64,000 nt of DNA from positions 43,152,001 through 43,216,000 of the forward strand of contig OX597823.1 in assembly GCA_951406725.2 (NCBI GenBank). Reading direction: 5' to 3'. A program made the translations under genes and the position numbers. How positions within the stretch are numbered: the first letter of the stretch is position 1; each line of letters opens with the position of its first letter. This DNA is from Octopus vulgaris (taxonomy: Eukaryota). The notes beneath the pieces were generated by a model. It saw only the letters and a program-made list of their open reading frames with translations. It was not told where the DNA came from and did not search any database. Below, one piece after another: positions 2,079-62,328 of the stretch.

Positions 2079-2316
2079 TATACATAAATGCCACACGTTA
2101 GGAGGGACTCTTTATGTCAAAACTACCAAAATAAATAAACACATAGTACCGAACGCGAGGGATTGCAACAACCGAACCGAGCCTTTTACTAACAGAATTC
2201 TGTTTTTAAAAGGCTCGCTTCGAGAGTTGCATTCCCTCGCATTCGGTACTATGTGTTTATTTATTTTGGTAGTTTTGACTTTAAGAGTCCCTCCTAGCGT
2301 GTGGCATTTATGTATA
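2079..2316. repeat. Spacer-less 238-bp imperfect palindrome centred on GAATTC (2195-2200)
   Basis: Arms 2079-2197 and 2198-2316 are reverse complements with no indels and about 11 mismatches in 119 bp; adjacent to (TA)n. Confidence 0.95.
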
Positions 2317-2326
2317 GTAATGCCCT

Positions 2327-2760: not shown

Positions 2761-3017
2761 TCATTACTAATATCTTAATAATATCTTGAATCCCTTGAAT
2801 GAATTTCGTGAGTAGATGCGCGAAGCTGTGGCTGAAAGTAAACAAACTTAAGACCAGTTCCAATATGTTTGAAAGATATTTGGACCTGTAAAAGTCTTAT
2901 CCCGTTGAAGAAAAAATGATGTGAAAAACACCAGTGAGCCCAGGTTGCCCTCTGTTGACTGATGGATGTATGCAAGTCGAACTCTTAGTTCTCATCAGTA
3001 TTAGATTCCAGTATTAG

Positions 3018-3257
3018 ATGCTTTCATTATTAATGCTTAACCGATTATGAACAAAACCAATAAAATAAAATGATATAGACGTTAAATTTCTAATACACAG
3101 TACTTCATTATTCATGTTATTCAGTATACCAATCAGTTAACAGCACTCGACAGATAAATAACAACACAACAAAACCTGTAAAAATTGTCGTCTCCTACTA
3201 AATAAATCGAGTGAATAATTTTTTACATAGCTTAAATGCTATCGTGTACTCTTTCCT
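3018..3257 (+). repeat. 240-bp segment duplicated at 8947-9186
   Basis: atgctttcattattaatgc...atcgtgtactctttcct appears identical at both sites (offset 5929). Confidence 0.93.
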
Positions 3258-5007: not shown

Positions 5008-5173
5008 AGGAGTGACTGTGTGGTAAGTAGCTTGCTAACCAACCACATGGTTCCGGGTTCAGTCCCACTGCGTGGCATCTTGGGCAAGTGTCTTCTGCTA
5101 TAGCCCCGGGCCGACCAATGCCTTGTGAGTGGACTTGGTAGACGGAAACTGAAAGAAGCCTGTCGTATATATG

Positions 5174-5206
<33 letters not shown>

Positions 5207-5421
5207 TTGTGTGTCTGTGTTTGTCCCCCTAGCATTGCTTGACAACCGATGCTGGTGTTTACGTCCCCGTCACTTAGCGGTTCGGCAAAAGAGACCGATA
5301 GAATAAGCACTGGGCTTACAAAGAATAAGTCCCGGGGTCGATTTGCTCGACTAAAGGCGGTGCTCCAGCATGGCTGCAGTCAAAATGACTGAAACAAGTA
5401 AAAGAGTAAAAGAGTAAAGGA

Positions 5422-5529: not shown

Positions 5530-5946
5530 GGTACTTGTGGTTATGTGGAAAATTGGGTTCTTCTATTCTAAAGAAAGCTTTAGCAGGACCCTTAAAGTTT
5601 AAAGTGAAGTTTACTATATCATGTTTTTAACCCACATGAATATACGCAGGATTACACCTAAGGACTCATGCTCTGATATCTATAACTTCGAAAATTTGAA
5701 CTATGAACTTTTATTCTTCTTTTTCTTCTTTCTTTCCATTTCCTTATTCTTTTACTGCCTTCCTCTATGTCGTCATCTTATTAATATATACCATTCTCAT
5801 TTTCTCTATTTTTGTCTGATGACGGAATATCCCATACTCGTTGATATCCTACAAACAGCTGCAATATTTTGAATATCTTCCTATAATAATATATTATACG
5901 ACTTGAGATCTTTGCCTTGCCTTAATGTTTGACGTCCTGTTTAACT
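5530..5946 (+). mobile_element. Decayed 3' end of a Penelope-like element with a degenerate hammerhead (5812-5866)
   Basis: CTGATGA-c-ggaatatc..gatatcc-ta-cAAA-CAGCTG-ca (G12 and U16 mutated); ends in (TA)n. Confidence 0.45.
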
Positions 5947-6004
5947 ATATATATATATATATATATATATAATCAAAATAAGCAACAAGTATATCCGAGG
6001 TAAT

Positions 6005-6090
6005 GTGGTACAATTGTTTCATGCTACTTCATTTTATTAAACACTGTAAGTTTTACATTAGTTTTAAAATGTCGAGCAATCTTCAGCCAC
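6005..6090 (-). ncRNA. Type I hammerhead ribozyme, intact core
   Basis: Minus strand: GTGG-CTGAAGA-TTGCT..(long loop)..AGCAT-GAAA-CAATTG-TA-CCAC; stem I GUGG/CCAC, GUA cleavage triplet. Confidence 0.8.
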
Positions 6091-6297
6091 TTATAGAAAT
6101 TTTCCAATCAAACGGACAATGCACATTCTTATTTCTATTTCGTTTGCCAACATTATAAAGAGGGTAGATATACAGACTATCATGTTCTTAAGAATGAAAT
6201 CAACCTCTCTGTCTGTGTATCTACCCTCTTTATAATGTTGGCAAACGAAATAGAAATAAAAATGTGCATTGTCGGTTTGACTGGAAAATTTCTAAAA

Positions 6298-6383
6298 GCG
6301 GCTGAAGATTGCCCGACATTTTCAAACTGATGTAATACTTACAGTGTTCAATAAAAGGAAGTAGCATGAAACAATTGTACCAT
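6298..6383 (+). ncRNA. Type I hammerhead ribozyme, intact core, weaker stem I
   Basis: GCGG-CTGAAGA(6302-6308)-TTGC..GCAT-GAAA(6368-6371)-CAATTG-TA-CCAT. Confidence 0.72.
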
Positions 6384-6497
6384 ATTACCTCGGATATACT
6401 TGTTGCTTATTTTGATTATAATCCCCCTCCCATTGATTTATATGGATAATACCATACAAAATTCTGGTGCCTTTGTCTTAAGTACCATATTCATCTG

Positions 6498-6683
<186 letters not shown>

Positions 6684-7856: not shown

Positions 7857-8276
7857 TACTGTGTGATCAGAAGCTTGCTTCCCAACCACATGGATCCAGT
7901 ACGGTTTCACAGCGTTGCGTTGCACCTTGGGCAAGTGTCTTCTACTATAGCCTCGGGCCGACCAAAGCCTTGTGAGTGGATTTGATTTGCGGAAACTAAA
8001 AGAAGCCCGTCGGATATATATATATGTGTGTGTGTGCGTGTGTGTGTACGTGTGTGTGTACCTTCGTGTCTCTGCTTGTCCTCCCCCATTTCACCGATAA
8101 ACAATCGGCGTTGGTGAGTTAACATCCCCGTAACTTAGCGGTACGGCAAAAGAACCGATATAATAAGTGCTAGATTTTTTTTTTAAATAAGTTCTGGGGT
8201 CGATTTGTTTGACTAAAGCCTTACAAGGCGGTGGTGCAGCATGGCCGCAGTAAAGCGACTGAACTAAGTAAAAGAA
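7857..8276 (+). mobile_element. SINE family A copy
   Basis: Aligns with 5008-5422. Confidence 0.88.
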
Positions 8277-8401
8277 TAGGTTATGGGTAACACACAAATG
8301 AATGTGCGTGTGTGTGAGCGTGTGTGTAGGTATGTGTGTGTCTTGTTGAGTGTATGAGGATGTGTGCAATACACCTGTCTTTGTCTGTACGTATGCGTAT
8401 A

Positions 8402-8788: not shown

Positions 8789-8946
8789 ACGCTGATGTCT
8801 ATCATCGTGTAATATATATGTTTGCGTGTTTCTGTTTCTGTTCATGTGTGTATGTTTGTGTCCATATTGGCATGTGTATTCATTCATTCATTCACTTTTT
8901 TTTACTCTCCTATATATAACCTTGTACGTTGTAATCCGCTTTATAT

Positions 8947-9183
8947 ATGCTTTCATTATTAATGCTTAACCGATTATGAACAAAACCAATAAAATAAAAT
9001 GATATAGACGTTAAATTTCTAATACACAGTACTTCATTATTCATGTTATTCAGTATACCAATCAGTTAACAGCACTCGACAGATAAATAACAACACAACA
9101 AAACCTGTAAAAATTGTCGTCTCCTACTAAATAAATCGAGTGAATAATTTTTTACATAGCTTAAATGCTATCGTGTACTCTTT

Positions 9184-9186
<3 letters not shown>
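8947..9186 (+). repeat. Second copy of the 240-bp duplication
   Basis: Appears identical to 3018-3257. Confidence 0.93.
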
Positions 9187-16477: not shown

Positions 16478-16855
16478 GGCGCAGGAGTGGATGTGTAGTA
16501 AATAGCTTGCTATCCAACCCCATGGTTCCGGCTTCAGTCCCACGGCGTGGTACCTAGGGCAAATGTCTTCTACTATAGCCTCGGGTCGACCAAAGCCTTG
16601 TAAGTGGATTTGGTAGACGGAAACTGAAAGAATCCTGCATACATATGTATATGTTTGTGTATCTGTGTTTGTTTCCAACCGTCGTTTGACTGTTGGTGTG
16701 TTTACATTCCCGTCAGATAGCGTTTCGGCATTAAGTGGCCGATAGAAAAAGTACTGGGCTTACAAAGAATAAGTCCTGGGGTCGATTTGTTCGACTAAAG
16801 GCAGGATTCGAGCATTTTCGTAGTCAAATGACTGAACCAAGTAAAAGAATAAGAG
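16478..16855 (+). mobile_element. SINE family A copy
   Basis: Starts ggcgcaggagtgg and aligns with the other copies. Confidence 0.88.
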
Positions 16856-54550: not shown

Positions 54551-54724
54551 TCGAAGATCGCTCATAAATGTAATTGAAAGAGTACGTCAATATAACAGCA
54601 TTTAATATAAAACCAATATCACGGGTGGCAAAACTGTTCAACACTGAAAGAAGCATGGAAGAATGCTTGTGGGTATATATATATATATCTGTAAAAATAA
54701 TATGTGACAATTACTCGGTAGCCA

Positions 54725-54787
54725 AGATAAAACTCTGCGTTTCGGATGCCGAGGTGGAAATCCATACCACCATCTCTTCAGTTATCT
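54725..54787 (-). ncRNA. Type I hammerhead ribozyme
   Basis: Minus strand: AGATAA-CTGAAGA-GATG..CATC-C-GAAA-CGCAGAG-TT-TTATCT; 6-bp stem I, GUU triplet. Confidence 0.72.
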
Positions 54788-54795
54788 GGCCATCT

Positions 54796-54852
54796 CTGAA
54801 GAGATGGTGGTATAGATTTCCACCTCGACATCCGAAACTCAGAGTTTTATCT
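54796..54852 (+). ncRNA. Hammerhead core lacking the 5' strand of stem I
   Basis: CTGAAGA-GATG..CATC-C-GAAA-CTCAGAG-TT-TTATCT; the arm begins exactly at C3. Confidence 0.6.
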
Positions 54853-54949
54853 TGGCTACCGAGTAATTGTCACATATTTTTACAGATAAATTCCTCTATT
54901 TACATAATATTGAGGTCTCTTTCTTTCTTTTGTTATCTTACCGTTTTTA

Positions 54950-55026: not shown

Positions 55027-58000
55027 TGGAGGCGGAAATAGCACAGAAGTAAGTCTAAAACATTTCAATTTAAGAAGGAATTTAACAAAAATGATTATAA
55101 AAATTATATAAAGAAAATGATACCAGTTTCGACGAATCTCATCTTATCAAATATCAGTAAATATTCATAAAAATATGAGGTAAAAACAGTTTATATACTG
55201 TCTAGGCCTCAAGAACATGTCTGGATATTTTTAATTGAAGTTTTCTTTAAACATAATTTGGTATAAACTTCACAGATTGAGAGAAGGAGCGTCTATTGTC
55301 TAAAAGAATCCTTAATCTTTTCCTGCCAAGGGAGTGGCTAAAAAACATTTATTGAATAGTTTTTACGCCCATCTGTGTGTGTGGGAGGGGCGGTATATTG
55401 TTCAGAATGTCCTTTCAATATGCTTGGAAGGTGATCAGCTGTGAGCTGATGCGTTTGTATGTTTGAAGAAAGAATTAGGGTTTTCCTTTGGGTTAGATGT
55501 ATACTTTTGACTGTCTCCAGCTTGTGTGTATATGAGTGGGCAGCAGCTGTGTGTATGTGTGCGGTCACTAGCTGTGTATGTATATGTGAGTGTATGTGTG
55601 AGTATGTTTCGGCATGTGTGTGAGTGTTGTTTTGCTATGGTTTCTTCTTTGTGTATGTGTGTGTGTTTATGTGTGTATTTGTGTTTGTGTGTGTGATTTG
55701 CGATTTTCTTTTTGTGTGTGTATGTAGGTTTGTATGTGTGTACGTGTGTGTTTGTTTCTGTGTATGTGCTAGCTTATATAAATATTAGATACATGATTCT
55801 GGTAATGATGAGTATTGTTCAAAATGATATGTCTAACACTGTTTTCTTAACTGGCTGTTCCTGTTTATTGGTTGGCGTTGGGTATTTATTAAATAGTGGT
55901 TTATATTTGTTAATAAATTGTCTTCGTTTGTTTGGTTTTCTTGTGTTTTGAAGGAATCTGAGCACTTGTAGAGGGGAAATATTTTGAAATTTGGTTGTAA
56001 TGTGAGTGCTTAACAGAATTTTCCTTGTGCTTTTGTTTCGGATCTGTTGGCGGTGTGTCATCATCCTGTAGCTAAACGATTCGTCCGTCTGACCTATGTA
56101 ATTATGTTGGCAACCTCGGTATGTGATCACGTAGACCAGATTTTCTTGTGGCAGGTGAGAGTGGACTTAACTTTCAAGGTTTGGCCTGGTCCGTCGACTA
56201 GGTAACGCCAAATACCGCAGTTTGTTCTCCCGCATTTTTCGACCGTTGGGTTGGGTTTCTTGGTGCGTTTTTGCCCCAGTGAGAATGAGTTTAGTATTTG
56301 GGGCTGCCTTTTCAATTTGATAATTTGTCGTTTACTTAATATTTTTCTCATTTTTTGATCTGCAAATAAGTTGGGAAGGTTTTTGTGGATGTGATCAAAT
56401 ATTTCGGTGTTCCTGGGATTGAAGATTGACACAAATGGTAAGACATTTTCCCTTCTTTTGTTTTTTGTTTTCCTTTGTTCATTGATATCCAGTTGTTTCG
56501 CCTTGGTTATTCCGTTGGTTATTATGCCAGGAGAAAAGGCTTTTCGATTAAGTGTGTCCTTCAGTTCCTCTAGTCTTTGTTCACGTTCGGATGGTTCTGA
56601 TAATATGGTGCAAATTCGTTTTGCCAGATTGAAGGGAATGTTCAGTTTGGCATTTTTCGGGTGACATGATGTGACAAGTAGGTACTGGTTGCAGTCGGTG
56701 GGTTTGTAGAAAATGTTCGTTTGTATTTTCCCATCTTGGTTTTTGATTAAGATATCCAGAAAGGCAAGTTATTTGGGACTAAACTACATTGTGAATTGGA
56801 TGTTATTGCTGAAGTTGACTATCATGTGTTTGATTTCTTTTAACTTGTCAAAATTTCCCTGCCATAATTTAAAGCAGTCAACCAGGTATCTTTTCAACTT
56901 TTTTTCTGAGTTGTGTACGGAACGTGTCACCTAATATTAGAAGAGATTGGTTGTAGATATTTTGTTCATGGAAGCCCATGATTAAGTTGGTGTATGTGGA
57001 GGCTACTTTCGTACCCATCACCGTTCTTGATGTTTGGTGTTAATCCGAACCGTTGAAAGCAAATAAGTTGTTTTCAAGTATGAATCTGATCTCATCAATG
57101 ATAAATTCCTCTTCTATGCGTGTTGGGAGTTCAGATTAGTGAGTGTCTAACCAGTATTGAAATGCAGTTATTCCATAATCACGTGGAATGTTGGTATAGG
57201 TTCACAACTTCAAATGAAGTAAAAATTGTACGTTTATTTACCGTTTTTGACAAATGATTTAGCATATATATGTCATCTTGTATGTAGCTCTGTATATGTT
57301 CTAGGAAGGGTTTTAGGAGGATGTCCAAGAAGTTGTTGATCCTGTGTATTTCACATGCCTACTATGATTGGTCTCAATTTTAGATCATCTGGGGGTGTTA
57401 GCTGTATGTATTTGTTTGTTGAGGATTTACAAGCATCACTTACCCTTTTGCATTTCTGGATTTTAAGCAAACCATAAAAGTTGCTCGTTTTGCATTTCTT
57501 TGTTGTTTAAGCCTTTGTTATACTTCCTTAAAAGAGTTGTGAGGTTTTCCTTTCTTTTTGACTTTTTGTAGTGGGTTACTTTTTCATAGTAGTTGTTTCC
57601 TCTAACATTGTGAGTGCTAGGTCTTTATAGTAATTTGTGTCCATGATGACGACAGTGCTCCCTTTATCAACGTCTTAGATAGTTATATCTGTATTTTCTT
57701 GTACATCTAGTAGGTCATTTCATTCATGCTTTGTAAAATTTGATTTAATGTTTCTTTGTTCAATTATTTCAAAGGGCAATTTCGCAACGTATTCACAGTA
57801 GGTGCCCAGTGCTATATTTAACCTATTATTTGGGCAAAAGTTGCTTTTGTGTCATGCGAGTGATTCGCCGTTGGTGGAGCGTTCGTTCAGCCTGAGATTT
57901 TGGCAGAATTCTGGAATGTTATTTTTCAGTTCAGGTAAGCTAGGTGTTTGTGGTTTGGGTGTAAACTTCAGTCTCTTACCTAGTATTTCTATTTGGGTGT

Positions 58001-60596: not shown

Positions 60597-61712
60597 TAGG
60601 GAGTAAATCCAAACTTACAGGGAAAAATTAGATTTAGGATTAAATCTAATTTTACAGTATAAATATATATATTAAATCAGAGATAAACCACTATTAGGCA
60701 AATCAAACAGTAAAAAACATAACCCAATAGATAGAAATAAAATTAATTAATATAATATACGAAATATATAAAATATAAAATTTAAAATTTAAATTATTTA
60801 AATTAAAAGTTAGAATTTAAAAAGTTATTTAAATTATTAATTTATACTTAAAACGTTATACATATATATATATAAATATATATATATATATTTTTATTTC
60901 TATTTTTATTATTATTATTATTATTTTAATTAAAAAATTTTTTTTTTTATAAATATAACTATCAAAAAGTATTAAGAAGTTTAATATAAGATAAAAAGTA
61001 AAACCACTACGATCGTTTCATGCCCATAACCTAATTCGAATAACAATAATTTAAATTCAATTAATAATTCGAATTATGGTTATAGTCAATCTTCAGGTTA
61101 ATGATAAGACTTAAATAAATAAGCAAAAATATTTAAACAATATTTTTAAAGAAATAAATAAAATAATAATTTTTATTATAAAAAACTCTATTATTAAACT
61201 AGAAACTTTAACGATTATGATTATGTCATACAATCGATTATAATGTTAAATATTAATTTTTAAGTATTAATTTTTAAGGTAAGAAACCCACAAATAATCT
61301 AATCTCAGTTATAGTCAATATCTAATTACATAAATATTTTTAAAAATATATATATATTTTACAAAAAATTTTAATTATTGTTATTCGAATTAGGTTATGG
61401 GCATGAAACGATCGTAGTGGTTTTACTCTTTATCTTATATTAAACTTTTTAATACTTTTTAATAGTTATATTTATAAAAAAAAATAATAATAATAATAAA
61501 AATAAAAATAATAATATATATATATATATAAACTTATAAGTATTAATTAATAATTTAAATATTTTTTTAAATTTTAACTTTTAATTTAAATAATTTAAAT
61601 TTTGAATGTTATATTTTATATATTTCGTATATTATATTAATTACTTTTATTTCTATTTTTACTGTTTGATTTGCCTAATAGTGGTTTTATCTCTAATTTA
61701 ATATATATATAT
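60597..61712. mobile_element. Large AT-rich fold-back pLTR-type element (arms ~60663-61056 and ~61367-61712)
   Basis: gataaaccactattaggcaaatcaaacagtaaaaa and ccactacgatcgtttcatgcccataacctaattcgaataacaat each have reverse-complement partners in the right arm. Confidence 0.88.
61004..61100 (-). ncRNA. Type I hammerhead with intact core and very long stem II
   Basis: Minus strand: TAAC-CTGAAGA-TTGACTATAACC..GGTTATGGGCAT-GAAA-CGATCG-TA-GTGG. Confidence 0.72.
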
Positions 61713-62328
61713 ATGTACAGGTAAGCACATAGTTGCAAAATAAGGTGGAACACTTGTACTCGAATACCAAAAGTAGAGTAATATGTTTTTCATTAAAGCT
61801 TCTAAATTATGACAGACCTCACAACCGTCCACGGGAACAGGGAAACTCAGAGTAAAAGTTCTGTGATAATCTTGCAGCTTTACTATAAACTATACATGTA
61901 TGTGTGTGTGTAAAAAGCATTGCACTCGTAAGCAATAAGGAATAGAGGTGAGTTGGTTTTAGCGGGGCTGAAAACTCCCCTCAGTTTTAAAATGAGTTGT
62001 AACAGATTTATGAAAATGCAAGACCGGTTTCGACGACATTTTCGGAGGAGTGTGGTTCAATGGAAAAAAAACATGCTGAGAAATCAAAGTTTTATTCAAA
62101 TTTCGATATCCAATGCTTATTTCATCTTTTAAGCATACTTTTCGAATTTTCTGTTGCATCTTCAAACTCCTCTAAAATTATTTTTATTTACTACTGAAAC
62201 GCAAAAAATTGTCGTAATAAACATGTAACAAAGGTTAAAAGCTAGAGCAACTTTAAGAGTGAATTGGAATTTCAACACTCCAAAGGAACTCTGTTATATA
62301 GATAGGCACACAGATTTTATGTATGTAA

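What the first reader, a model, noticed from the sequence alone, without database searches (positions are those of the whole stretch)
5968..6420. Ambisense hammerhead hairpin: 453-bp rod with an intact-core ribozyme on each strand
Two 210-bp arms (about 13 mismatches, no indels) each encode CUGAAGA...GAAA-CAAUUG-UA. A transcript from either strand therefore contains one HHR plus its near-perfect antisense, and the antisense precedes the ribozyme in both directions. The hairpin should sequester the HHR. This resembles viroid-like rod RNAs with ribozymes in both polarities, but it is encoded in the genome. It may equally be a by-product of PLE template jumping.
Basis: partly seen in the sequence, partly recalled or inferred. 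Interest (0 to 1): 0.78.

Follow-up and report, generated by a model that had tools for sequence, protein, structure and literature searches.

The report
Fold-back stub of a Penelope retrotransposon
The 453-base hairpin with a ribozyme motif on each strand is real, but it is two truncated ends of a Penelope-like jumping gene joined head to head, likely when it inserted; this arrangement is common in this genome and already described, so it is ordinary.

Summary
Observation confirmed: 210-nt arms, 13 mismatches, no indels, a hammerhead core on each strand. The viroid-like reading fails. Each arm is the 3' end (pLTR) of a Penelope-like retroelement with Hydra-clade motifs. The 33-nt 'loop' is ordinary upstream element sequence. 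Of 88 loci picked by a 35-mer, 42 carry an adjacent head-to-head inverted end, 37 of the 42 pair a short end with a tailed end, 21 reach the core on both strands, and no junction recurs. The window's junction is unique in the genome. The family's hammerhead covaries, but 11 of the 13 differences are derived in the plus arm, whose helices are no longer predicted to form. Inverted pLTR plus tail, and hammerheads on opposite strands 100-700 bp apart, are published (PMC3846280, PMC4209133, PMC8557442). The scan found the same pattern in other genomes before.

The parts
5946..5971 (.). (TA)n microsatellite at the left end; likely insertion target
   Evidence: 71 of 88 family 3' ends abut a TA run
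5968..6177 (-). Inverted, 5'-truncated pLTR copy (family positions -91 to +118 from the C of CUGA); 'short' 3' end, no tail
   Evidence: 98% to its best single copy
6005..6090 (-). Type I hammerhead, near family-typical: 4-bp stem I, U.U-closed long stem II, palindromic mini stem III, predicted cut after 6009
   Evidence: stem I pair probability 0.84-0.85, stem II base 0.84-0.98 when folded alone; family covariation
6176..6177 (.). Junction of the two copies, 2-nt microhomology (AC); unique in the genome
6178..6210 (+). 'Spacer': ordinary upstream sequence of the longer copy, present in the same register in single copies
   Evidence: L017, L020, L025
6211..6420 (+). Right arm: pLTR part of the longer copy; carries 11 of the 13 derived differences
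6298..6383 (+). Hammerhead with intact core but damaged helices (mismatches at 6299, 6313, 6349, 6357; wobble at 6383); predicted cut after 6379
   Evidence: all tested helix pairs have probability 0.0 when the arm is folded alone; helices I+II evaluate to +1.9 kcal/mol against -11.8 for the minus arm
6421..6497 (+). One-sided 'tail' (family +119 to about +198 of 216); in tandem elements the same sequence leads on into the ORF region
6493..6663 (.). (ATCT)n then (TA)n array bounding the right end; the last ~18 nt of the tail are missing here

Best explanation
The hairpin is two 5'-truncated 3' ends of one Penelope-like retroelement family with Hydra-clade motifs, joined head to head between microsatellites, likely as a dead-on-arrival product of a single insertion. 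Shown: each arm is the family's pLTR, downstream of an RT / GIY-YIG-like ORF in longer copies; one end stops at +118 and the other carries the tail; the junction is unique and has a 2-nt microhomology. Inferred mechanism: the element's endonuclease nicks both strands of a (TA)n target, reverse transcription is primed at both nicks from two different start sites (+118 and +216) on RNA from the same source element, both cDNAs stop early, and they are joined by microhomology. A hammerhead on each strand follows automatically whenever both cDNAs pass the motif. After insertion the arms decay independently. If transcribed, the RNA is predicted to form a long duplex that keeps both ribozymes unfolded.
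For: Single copies extend upstream through a long 3' UTR into a GIY-YIG-type C terminus; longer copies carry RT motifs, DKT, CxCX5C, CxxC and CxH; atlas look-alikes carry RVT_1/HTH_animal (0.94-0.96) and GIY-YIG (33% of one cluster, 0.95). L082 shows the textbook form: (TA)n, inverted arm, truncated ORF, pLTR, tail. 42 of 88 loci have an adjacent inverted end; 37 of the 40 classifiable pairs are short+tail against 48% expected from single copies (p=3e-9). No repeated breakpoint pair among 42, no identical junction among 59, window junction 1 hit at <=2 mismatches. Arms of one hairpin share rare variants in 19 of 38 hairpins against 7.5% of 398 random pairs, while 268 rare variants sit in one arm only and 41 are shared. 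Literature: inverted pLTR plus tail (PMC3846280, PMC8557442); both strands cleaved and extended, two RT start sites delimiting the tail in a Poseidon element in vitro (PMC11167929).
Against: The priming mechanism is inferred from genomic products only; PMC3846280 instead proposes self-priming on an antisense template, which these data do not exclude. Shared rare variants could also come from arm-to-arm conversion. In this hairpin the arms share only 1 rare variant and the 11:2 asymmetry is mildly odd (p=0.02, one of 38 looked at), so the two arms may come from different templates. No Pfam RT or GIY-YIG hit for 6 ORF fragments and no PDB hit. No target-site duplication can be read inside the microsatellites. 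No tree was built for the clade call.
Confidence: 0.93

Rival explanations
1. A genome-encoded viroid-like or retrozyme-like ambisense rod RNA that is cut out by its hammerheads in both polarities and propagates as a unit.
For: Intact cores on both strands and a -308 kcal/mol rod; at least 15 similar-sized hairpins in the genome; one near-matching junction pair, L094/L176, 88.6% ungapped with the tail on the same side.
Against: Junction unique; no identical junction among 59; in five near-matching pairs no arm-specific lineage runs across loci, e.g. L176 arms differ at 5 sites from each other and at 7-11 from L094 arms. Plus-strand helices broken. Each strand has only one ribozyme, with a 1-bp stem III that needs a dimer (PMC4209133), so one transcript cannot release a monomer with two cut ends. 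Viroid-like RNAs are self-complementary single sequences, not a duplicated arm (recalled).
Confidence: 0.02
2. A MITE or fold-back DNA transposon with 210-bp terminal inverted repeats and TA target duplication, derived from a pLTR.
For: Long inverted repeats flanked by TA at both arm ends; no coding capacity.
Against: Ends are asymmetric (tail on one side in 37 of 42), centres differ in every copy, arm lengths range from tens of bases to kilobases, and arms are the 3' end of an RT element.
Confidence: 0.02
3. The hairpin arose after insertion: a second copy inserted beside or into an older one, or a DNA-level fold-back or repair event duplicated one arm.
For: Arms are unequally diverged (93.8% vs 98.1% best identity to other copies) and share only 1 rare variant; the family favours TA runs, and another hammerhead-bearing family ends at the same TA run.
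Against: No TA run or target remnant at the junction; the same short+tail pairing holds in 37 of 40 classifiable pairs, which independent insertions would not give; a DNA fold-back would copy the tail too or end at random.
Confidence: 0.03

Closest known systems
Complex insertion units of endonuclease-positive Penelope-like elements: pLTR, adjacent inverted 5'-truncated copy, one-sided tail (PMC3846280 passages; PMC8557442 passages, Fig. 2 legend)
   Same: Head-to-head inverted copy, tail on one end, microhomology at the junction, microsatellite target, hammerhead in the pLTR.
   Different: Both copies are cut back to the pLTR, so no ORF remains; tail is about 98 nt in this family against the 30-40 bp described.
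Hydra clade of PLEs (PMC8557442 section 11, Files S1 and S2), including Penelope-13_HM and Hydra-1_Obim
   Same: DKT, CxCX5C linker, CxxC and CxH around E and N, (TA)n target. Most Hydra magnipapillata motifs in File S2 have the same core-T...T-GAA (U.U) closure of stem II. Penelope-13_HM is listed with the hammerhead on both strands because of a 5' inverted copy.
   Different: Longer unit (3.5-4.3 kb between hammerheads in L085 and L090, against 'generally <3 kb'), Asn-rich insert, long 3' UTR, very long stem II; RWI where Hydra has RWK; the hammerhead differs from that listed for Hydra-1_Obim, so a different family.
Dual minimal hammerheads on opposite strands in Schistosoma PLE remnants (PMC4209133, parts 1-2 of 4)
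   Same: Two type I motifs about 100-700 bp apart on opposite strands; short palindromic helix III; dimer-dependent.
   Different: Other PLE family and host; this motif keeps a 4-nt palindromic loop 3.
Non-LTR retrozymes (10.64898/2026.07.22.740005, part 1 of 5) and viroid-like RNAs with ribozymes in both polarities (recalled)
   Same: Small, non-coding, type I hammerhead related to pLTRs.
   Different: Retrozymes are head-to-tail tandems with same-strand ribozymes that release a monomer; this is head-to-head with one ribozyme per strand and no recurring unit.

Membership tests
EN+ Penelope-like element insertion unit | Arm is the pLTR / 3' end of an element with RT and C-terminal GIY-YIG ORF | tested here: met
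   atlas leads; Pfam gave no RT or GIY-YIG hit
EN+ Penelope-like element insertion unit | Adjacent inverted 5'-truncated copy and one-sided tail | tested here: met
   window; 42 of 88 loci, 37 of 42 short+tail; L082 full form
EN+ Penelope-like element insertion unit | Partial tandem pLTR-ORF-pLTR copies exist | tested here: met
   L085, L090
EN+ Penelope-like element insertion unit | Short target-site duplication | tested here: inconclusive
   ends lie in microsatellites
Hydra clade | DKG changed to DKT | tested here: met
   L082, L085, L090, L093
Hydra clade | CxCX5C linker; CxxC and CxH around conserved E and N; no CCHH | tested here: met
   L080, L081 read by eye; L018, L019
Hydra clade | RWK motif | tested here: inconclusive
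   RWI at the likely place in L085 and L090; no alignment to Hydra proteins
Hydra clade | (TA)n insertion and canonical hammerhead | tested here: met
   71 of 88 3' ends
Hydra clade | Groups with Hydra RTs in a phylogeny | not tested
   no tree built; reference proteins not in hand
Type I hammerhead ribozyme | Conserved core with covarying helices I-III | tested here: met
   76 of 97 copies keep both core halves; 10 of 27 pairs change on both sides, 0 of 500 shuffles as high, 91% paired vs 36-50% slid (rows preselected for intact cores). Met for family and minus arm, not for the plus arm. U10.1-U11.1 is a known variant (PMC3088659 passage).
Type I hammerhead ribozyme | Self-cleavage | not testable with these tools
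   needs in vitro assay
Retrozyme / viroid-like ambisense RNA | Recurring unit with fixed junction | tested here: not met
Retrozyme / viroid-like ambisense RNA | Foldable ribozyme in both polarities | tested here: not met
   plus arm does not fold in silico
Retrozyme / viroid-like ambisense RNA | Monomeric or circular RNA in cells | not testable with these tools
   only contigs, none on record as RNA
MITE / fold-back DNA transposon | Symmetric fixed termini and shared centre among copies | tested here: not met

The most novel reading that the evidence does not exclude
Although each hairpin arises by accident, the roughly one hundred or more two-ribozyme fold-backs of this family are transcribed by read-through and act collectively as long double-stranded RNA that silences or edits the element's own pLTR, or are cut by hammerheads that dimerise in trans to release small rod RNAs of both polarities.
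Probability: 0.05. Interest if true: 0.6.

Novelty: new member of a known kind. Interest (0 to 1): 0.12.

Why it matters
As a locus it matters little: one decaying stub among many. The family counts are a modest contribution to an open question, how Penelope-like elements make inverted ends. A near-strict pairing of one short end with one tailed end (37 of 40) and shared rare variants between arms (19 of 38 vs 7.5%) fit concerted priming at both nicks from two start sites on RNA from one source. That can be tested in the existing in vitro system (PMC11167929). The qualitative pattern is already in print.

Tried and rejected
Rfam: nothing at gathering score; miRNA-family matches far below cut-off are generic hairpin hits and were rejected. 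Pfam on 6 ORF fragments: only a weak GATA-like match below cut-off; PDB sequences: none; BLASTP to the other Penelope-like fragment in the window: not significant. Expression: no RNA holder listed; four runs laid are contigs, three only guessed to be RNA, covering mostly other family members, none spanning the stretch; used neither for nor against, and gives no independent check of the assembly. A-to-I editing of the sense template as cause of the plus arm's extra changes: rejected, only 1 of 11 is A>G on the sense strand. Clustering of junctions near the element's internal palindrome among the hits: set aside as selection by query length; the unbiased set is spread widely. BLAST breakpoints are approximate because of subfamily divergence from the reference copy, so junctions were re-tested by direct comparison. 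Literature search 'octopus + Penelope + hammerhead' gave 5 papers, 4 listed, none on these hairpins by title or abstract start.

Full report
Observation. The inverted repeat is as described: arms 5968-6177 and 6211-6420, 210 nt, 33 nt apart, 13 mismatches and no indels. A CUGAAGA box starts at 6302 on + and 6086 on -, each followed by GAAAC-AAUU-GUA, with predicted cuts after 6379 and 6009. Both motifs point outward, so the copies are head to head. Rfam does not recognise the motif.

What the arms are. The window lies in a 2.8-Gb assembly of 227 contigs, rich in microsatellites; this looks like an octopus-type genome, an inference from recalled genome features and not from a call. A search with the 453-mer gave 2680 candidates, 40 scored, among them 15 hairpin loci and many single copies. 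Single copies show that the 33-nt loop is just the sequence upstream of the right arm; the join is a 2-nt microhomology at 6176-6177. Five of 22 single-copy loci extend about 1.3 kb upstream to the end of an ORF with CxxC, E, N and CxH residues. Searching with that peptide gave 16454 candidates, 150 scored. Of 20 further loci fetched, 19 hold this C terminus with the arm downstream, and several hold RT motifs, DKT and a CxCX5C linker. Atlas look-alikes carry RVT_1, HTH_animal and GIY-YIG families in part of their members, while Pfam and PDB sequence searches were blank. These motifs match the Hydra clade as defined in PMC8557442 (section 11 read), except RWI for RWK and a longer unit; no tree was built. 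L085 and L090 are pLTR-ORF-pLTR tandems, and L082 is the textbook complex unit: TA run, inverted arm, truncated ORF, pLTR, tail, TA run.

The missed tail. Family 3' ends fall at +118 or +216 from the C of CUGA. The window's left copy ends at +118 in a TA run; the right copy continues through the tail to about +198 (6497), where a (ATCT)n array begins.

How common, and does it propagate? An exact 35-mer from the hammerhead has 482 matches. Of the 100 listed, 4 were second members of a locus and 8 loci were left out (3 already held: one inverted, two single; 5 not fetched), leaving 88. Of these, 42 have an adjacent inverted 3' end, 21 reach the CUGA box on both strands and 17 include the 5' side of stem I on both; 28 of the 88 had only 1.5-kb flanks, so 42 is a lower bound. 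Among the 42, 37 pair a short with a tailed end, 3 are short+short and 2 unclassifiable; single copies are 26 short, 18 tailed, 2 other, so independence predicts 48% (p=3e-9). No breakpoint pair repeats. Direct comparison of 59 junctions found none identical; 41 could be spanned by another locus at 69-91% identity, mostly with gaps. The nearest, L094/L176, is ungapped at 88.6%, but in it and four other close pairs no arm-specific lineage runs across loci. The window's junction 31-mer has one match in the genome at up to 2 mismatches. Scaling a quarter of loci to 482 matches suggests about a hundred two-core hairpins in this subfamily alone (inference). The same window holds a second one of another family at 54683-54891.

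Origin of the arms. In 38 hairpins, arms share at least one rare variant in 19, against 7.5% of 398 random pairs; 41 rare variants are shared and 268 lie in one arm (the 170 copies may include a few places held twice). So arms usually come from the same source and then drift apart; arm-to-arm conversion is not excluded. In this hairpin only 1 rare variant is shared, and 11 of 13 differences are derived in the plus arm (p=0.02 uncorrected), so different templates are possible here.

The ribozyme. Across 97 copies, 76 keep both halves of the core. On 54 rows chosen for intact cores, the structure has 91% paired cells and 10 of 27 pairs with changes on both sides, above all 500 shuffles and all slid controls (relatedness inflates such counts). 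The first stem II pair is mostly U.U (45 of 54 non-standard), a variant noted in PMC3088659 (passage) and seen in most Hydra magnipapillata motifs in File S2 of PMC8557442. The minus arm alone folds into helices I and II (0.84-0.98 at the core-flanking pairs); the plus arm alone does not (0.0), having four broken pairs and a wobble; in the full hairpin neither forms. Stem III is one pair plus a palindrome, a design that PMC4209133 (parts 1-2 of 4 read) reports as inactive as a monomer and weak as a dimer. One ribozyme per strand cannot supply that partner in cis.

Mechanism. Best reading: nicks on both strands of a TA run, priming at both from two start sites, early termination and microhomology joining. 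PMC11167929 (passages and first part of the main text) shows a Poseidon protein cleaving and extending both strands, with two start sites that delimit the tail. PMC3846280 (passages) describes inverted pLTR plus tail, notes head-to-head as the usual form and proposes self-priming on an antisense template instead. The product is shown; the route is inferred.

Known comparison. PMC4209133 states that dual minimal hammerheads occur about 100-700 bp apart on opposite strands. Files S1 and S2 of PMC8557442 (search plus part 2 of 59) list Penelope-13_HM with a 5' inverted copy and the hammerhead on both strands, and a Hydra family from an octopus whose hammerhead differs from this one. The retrozyme preprint (part 1 of 5; supplements not available) defines non-LTR retrozymes as tandems, which this is not. 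Earlier scan notes on other genomes reached the same reading; mine was formed before I opened them and I did not check their data.

Verdict. Real, ordinary, a new family member of a known architecture. Interest 0.12.

Noticed in passing
window 5606-5945 (+): 3' end of another high-copy family (1721 candidates) with a hammerhead at 5817 whose core is decayed here but intact in relatives. It ends at the same TA run as the hairpin, and relatives also form head-to-head pairs (L193, L194).
   Followed up: partly
window 54683-54891: Second fold-back with hammerhead cores on both strands, different family; the minus motif has a 5-bp stem I, the plus copy is cut just before the core.
   Followed up: partly
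window 60659-61714: Head-to-head inverted pair of a third AT-rich family with a full hammerhead at 61096 (-) and a 5'-truncated one on +.
   Followed up: partly
window 2079-2319: 241-bp fold-back (90% self-complementary) next to a TA run, no hammerhead core found by pattern.
   Followed up: no
window 56127-56768 (-): 213-codon frame that reads like the thumb/linker of another Penelope-type RT (recalled resemblance); no significant match to this family.
   Followed up: partly
window 5015-5410, 7858-8278, 16492-16852: Dispersed ~400-bp SINE-like repeat with an internal microsatellite, 7 hits in the window.
   Followed up: no
window 3015-3257 and 8944-9186: 243-bp direct repeat, 99.6% identical, 5.9 kb apart, bracketing the region of the finding.
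   Followed up: no
L160 (G000:C3:64143929-64144106): One convergent (tail-to-tail) arrangement of two hammerhead-bearing pieces, the only such case with two exact pattern matches among the 88 loci.
   Followed up: no
L100, L103, L150, L169: Inverted internal segments that are not 3' ends, resembling ordinary twin-priming inversions or multiple template switches.
   Followed up: no
L080, L081: Long Asn-rich stretch between RT and endonuclease, like the inserts described in rotifer Penelope ORFs (PMC3846280 passage).
   Followed up: no
alignment A1, stem II closing pair: Subfamilies show G-C, G.U and U.U at 10.1-11.1, a possible stepwise series within one family.
   Followed up: no
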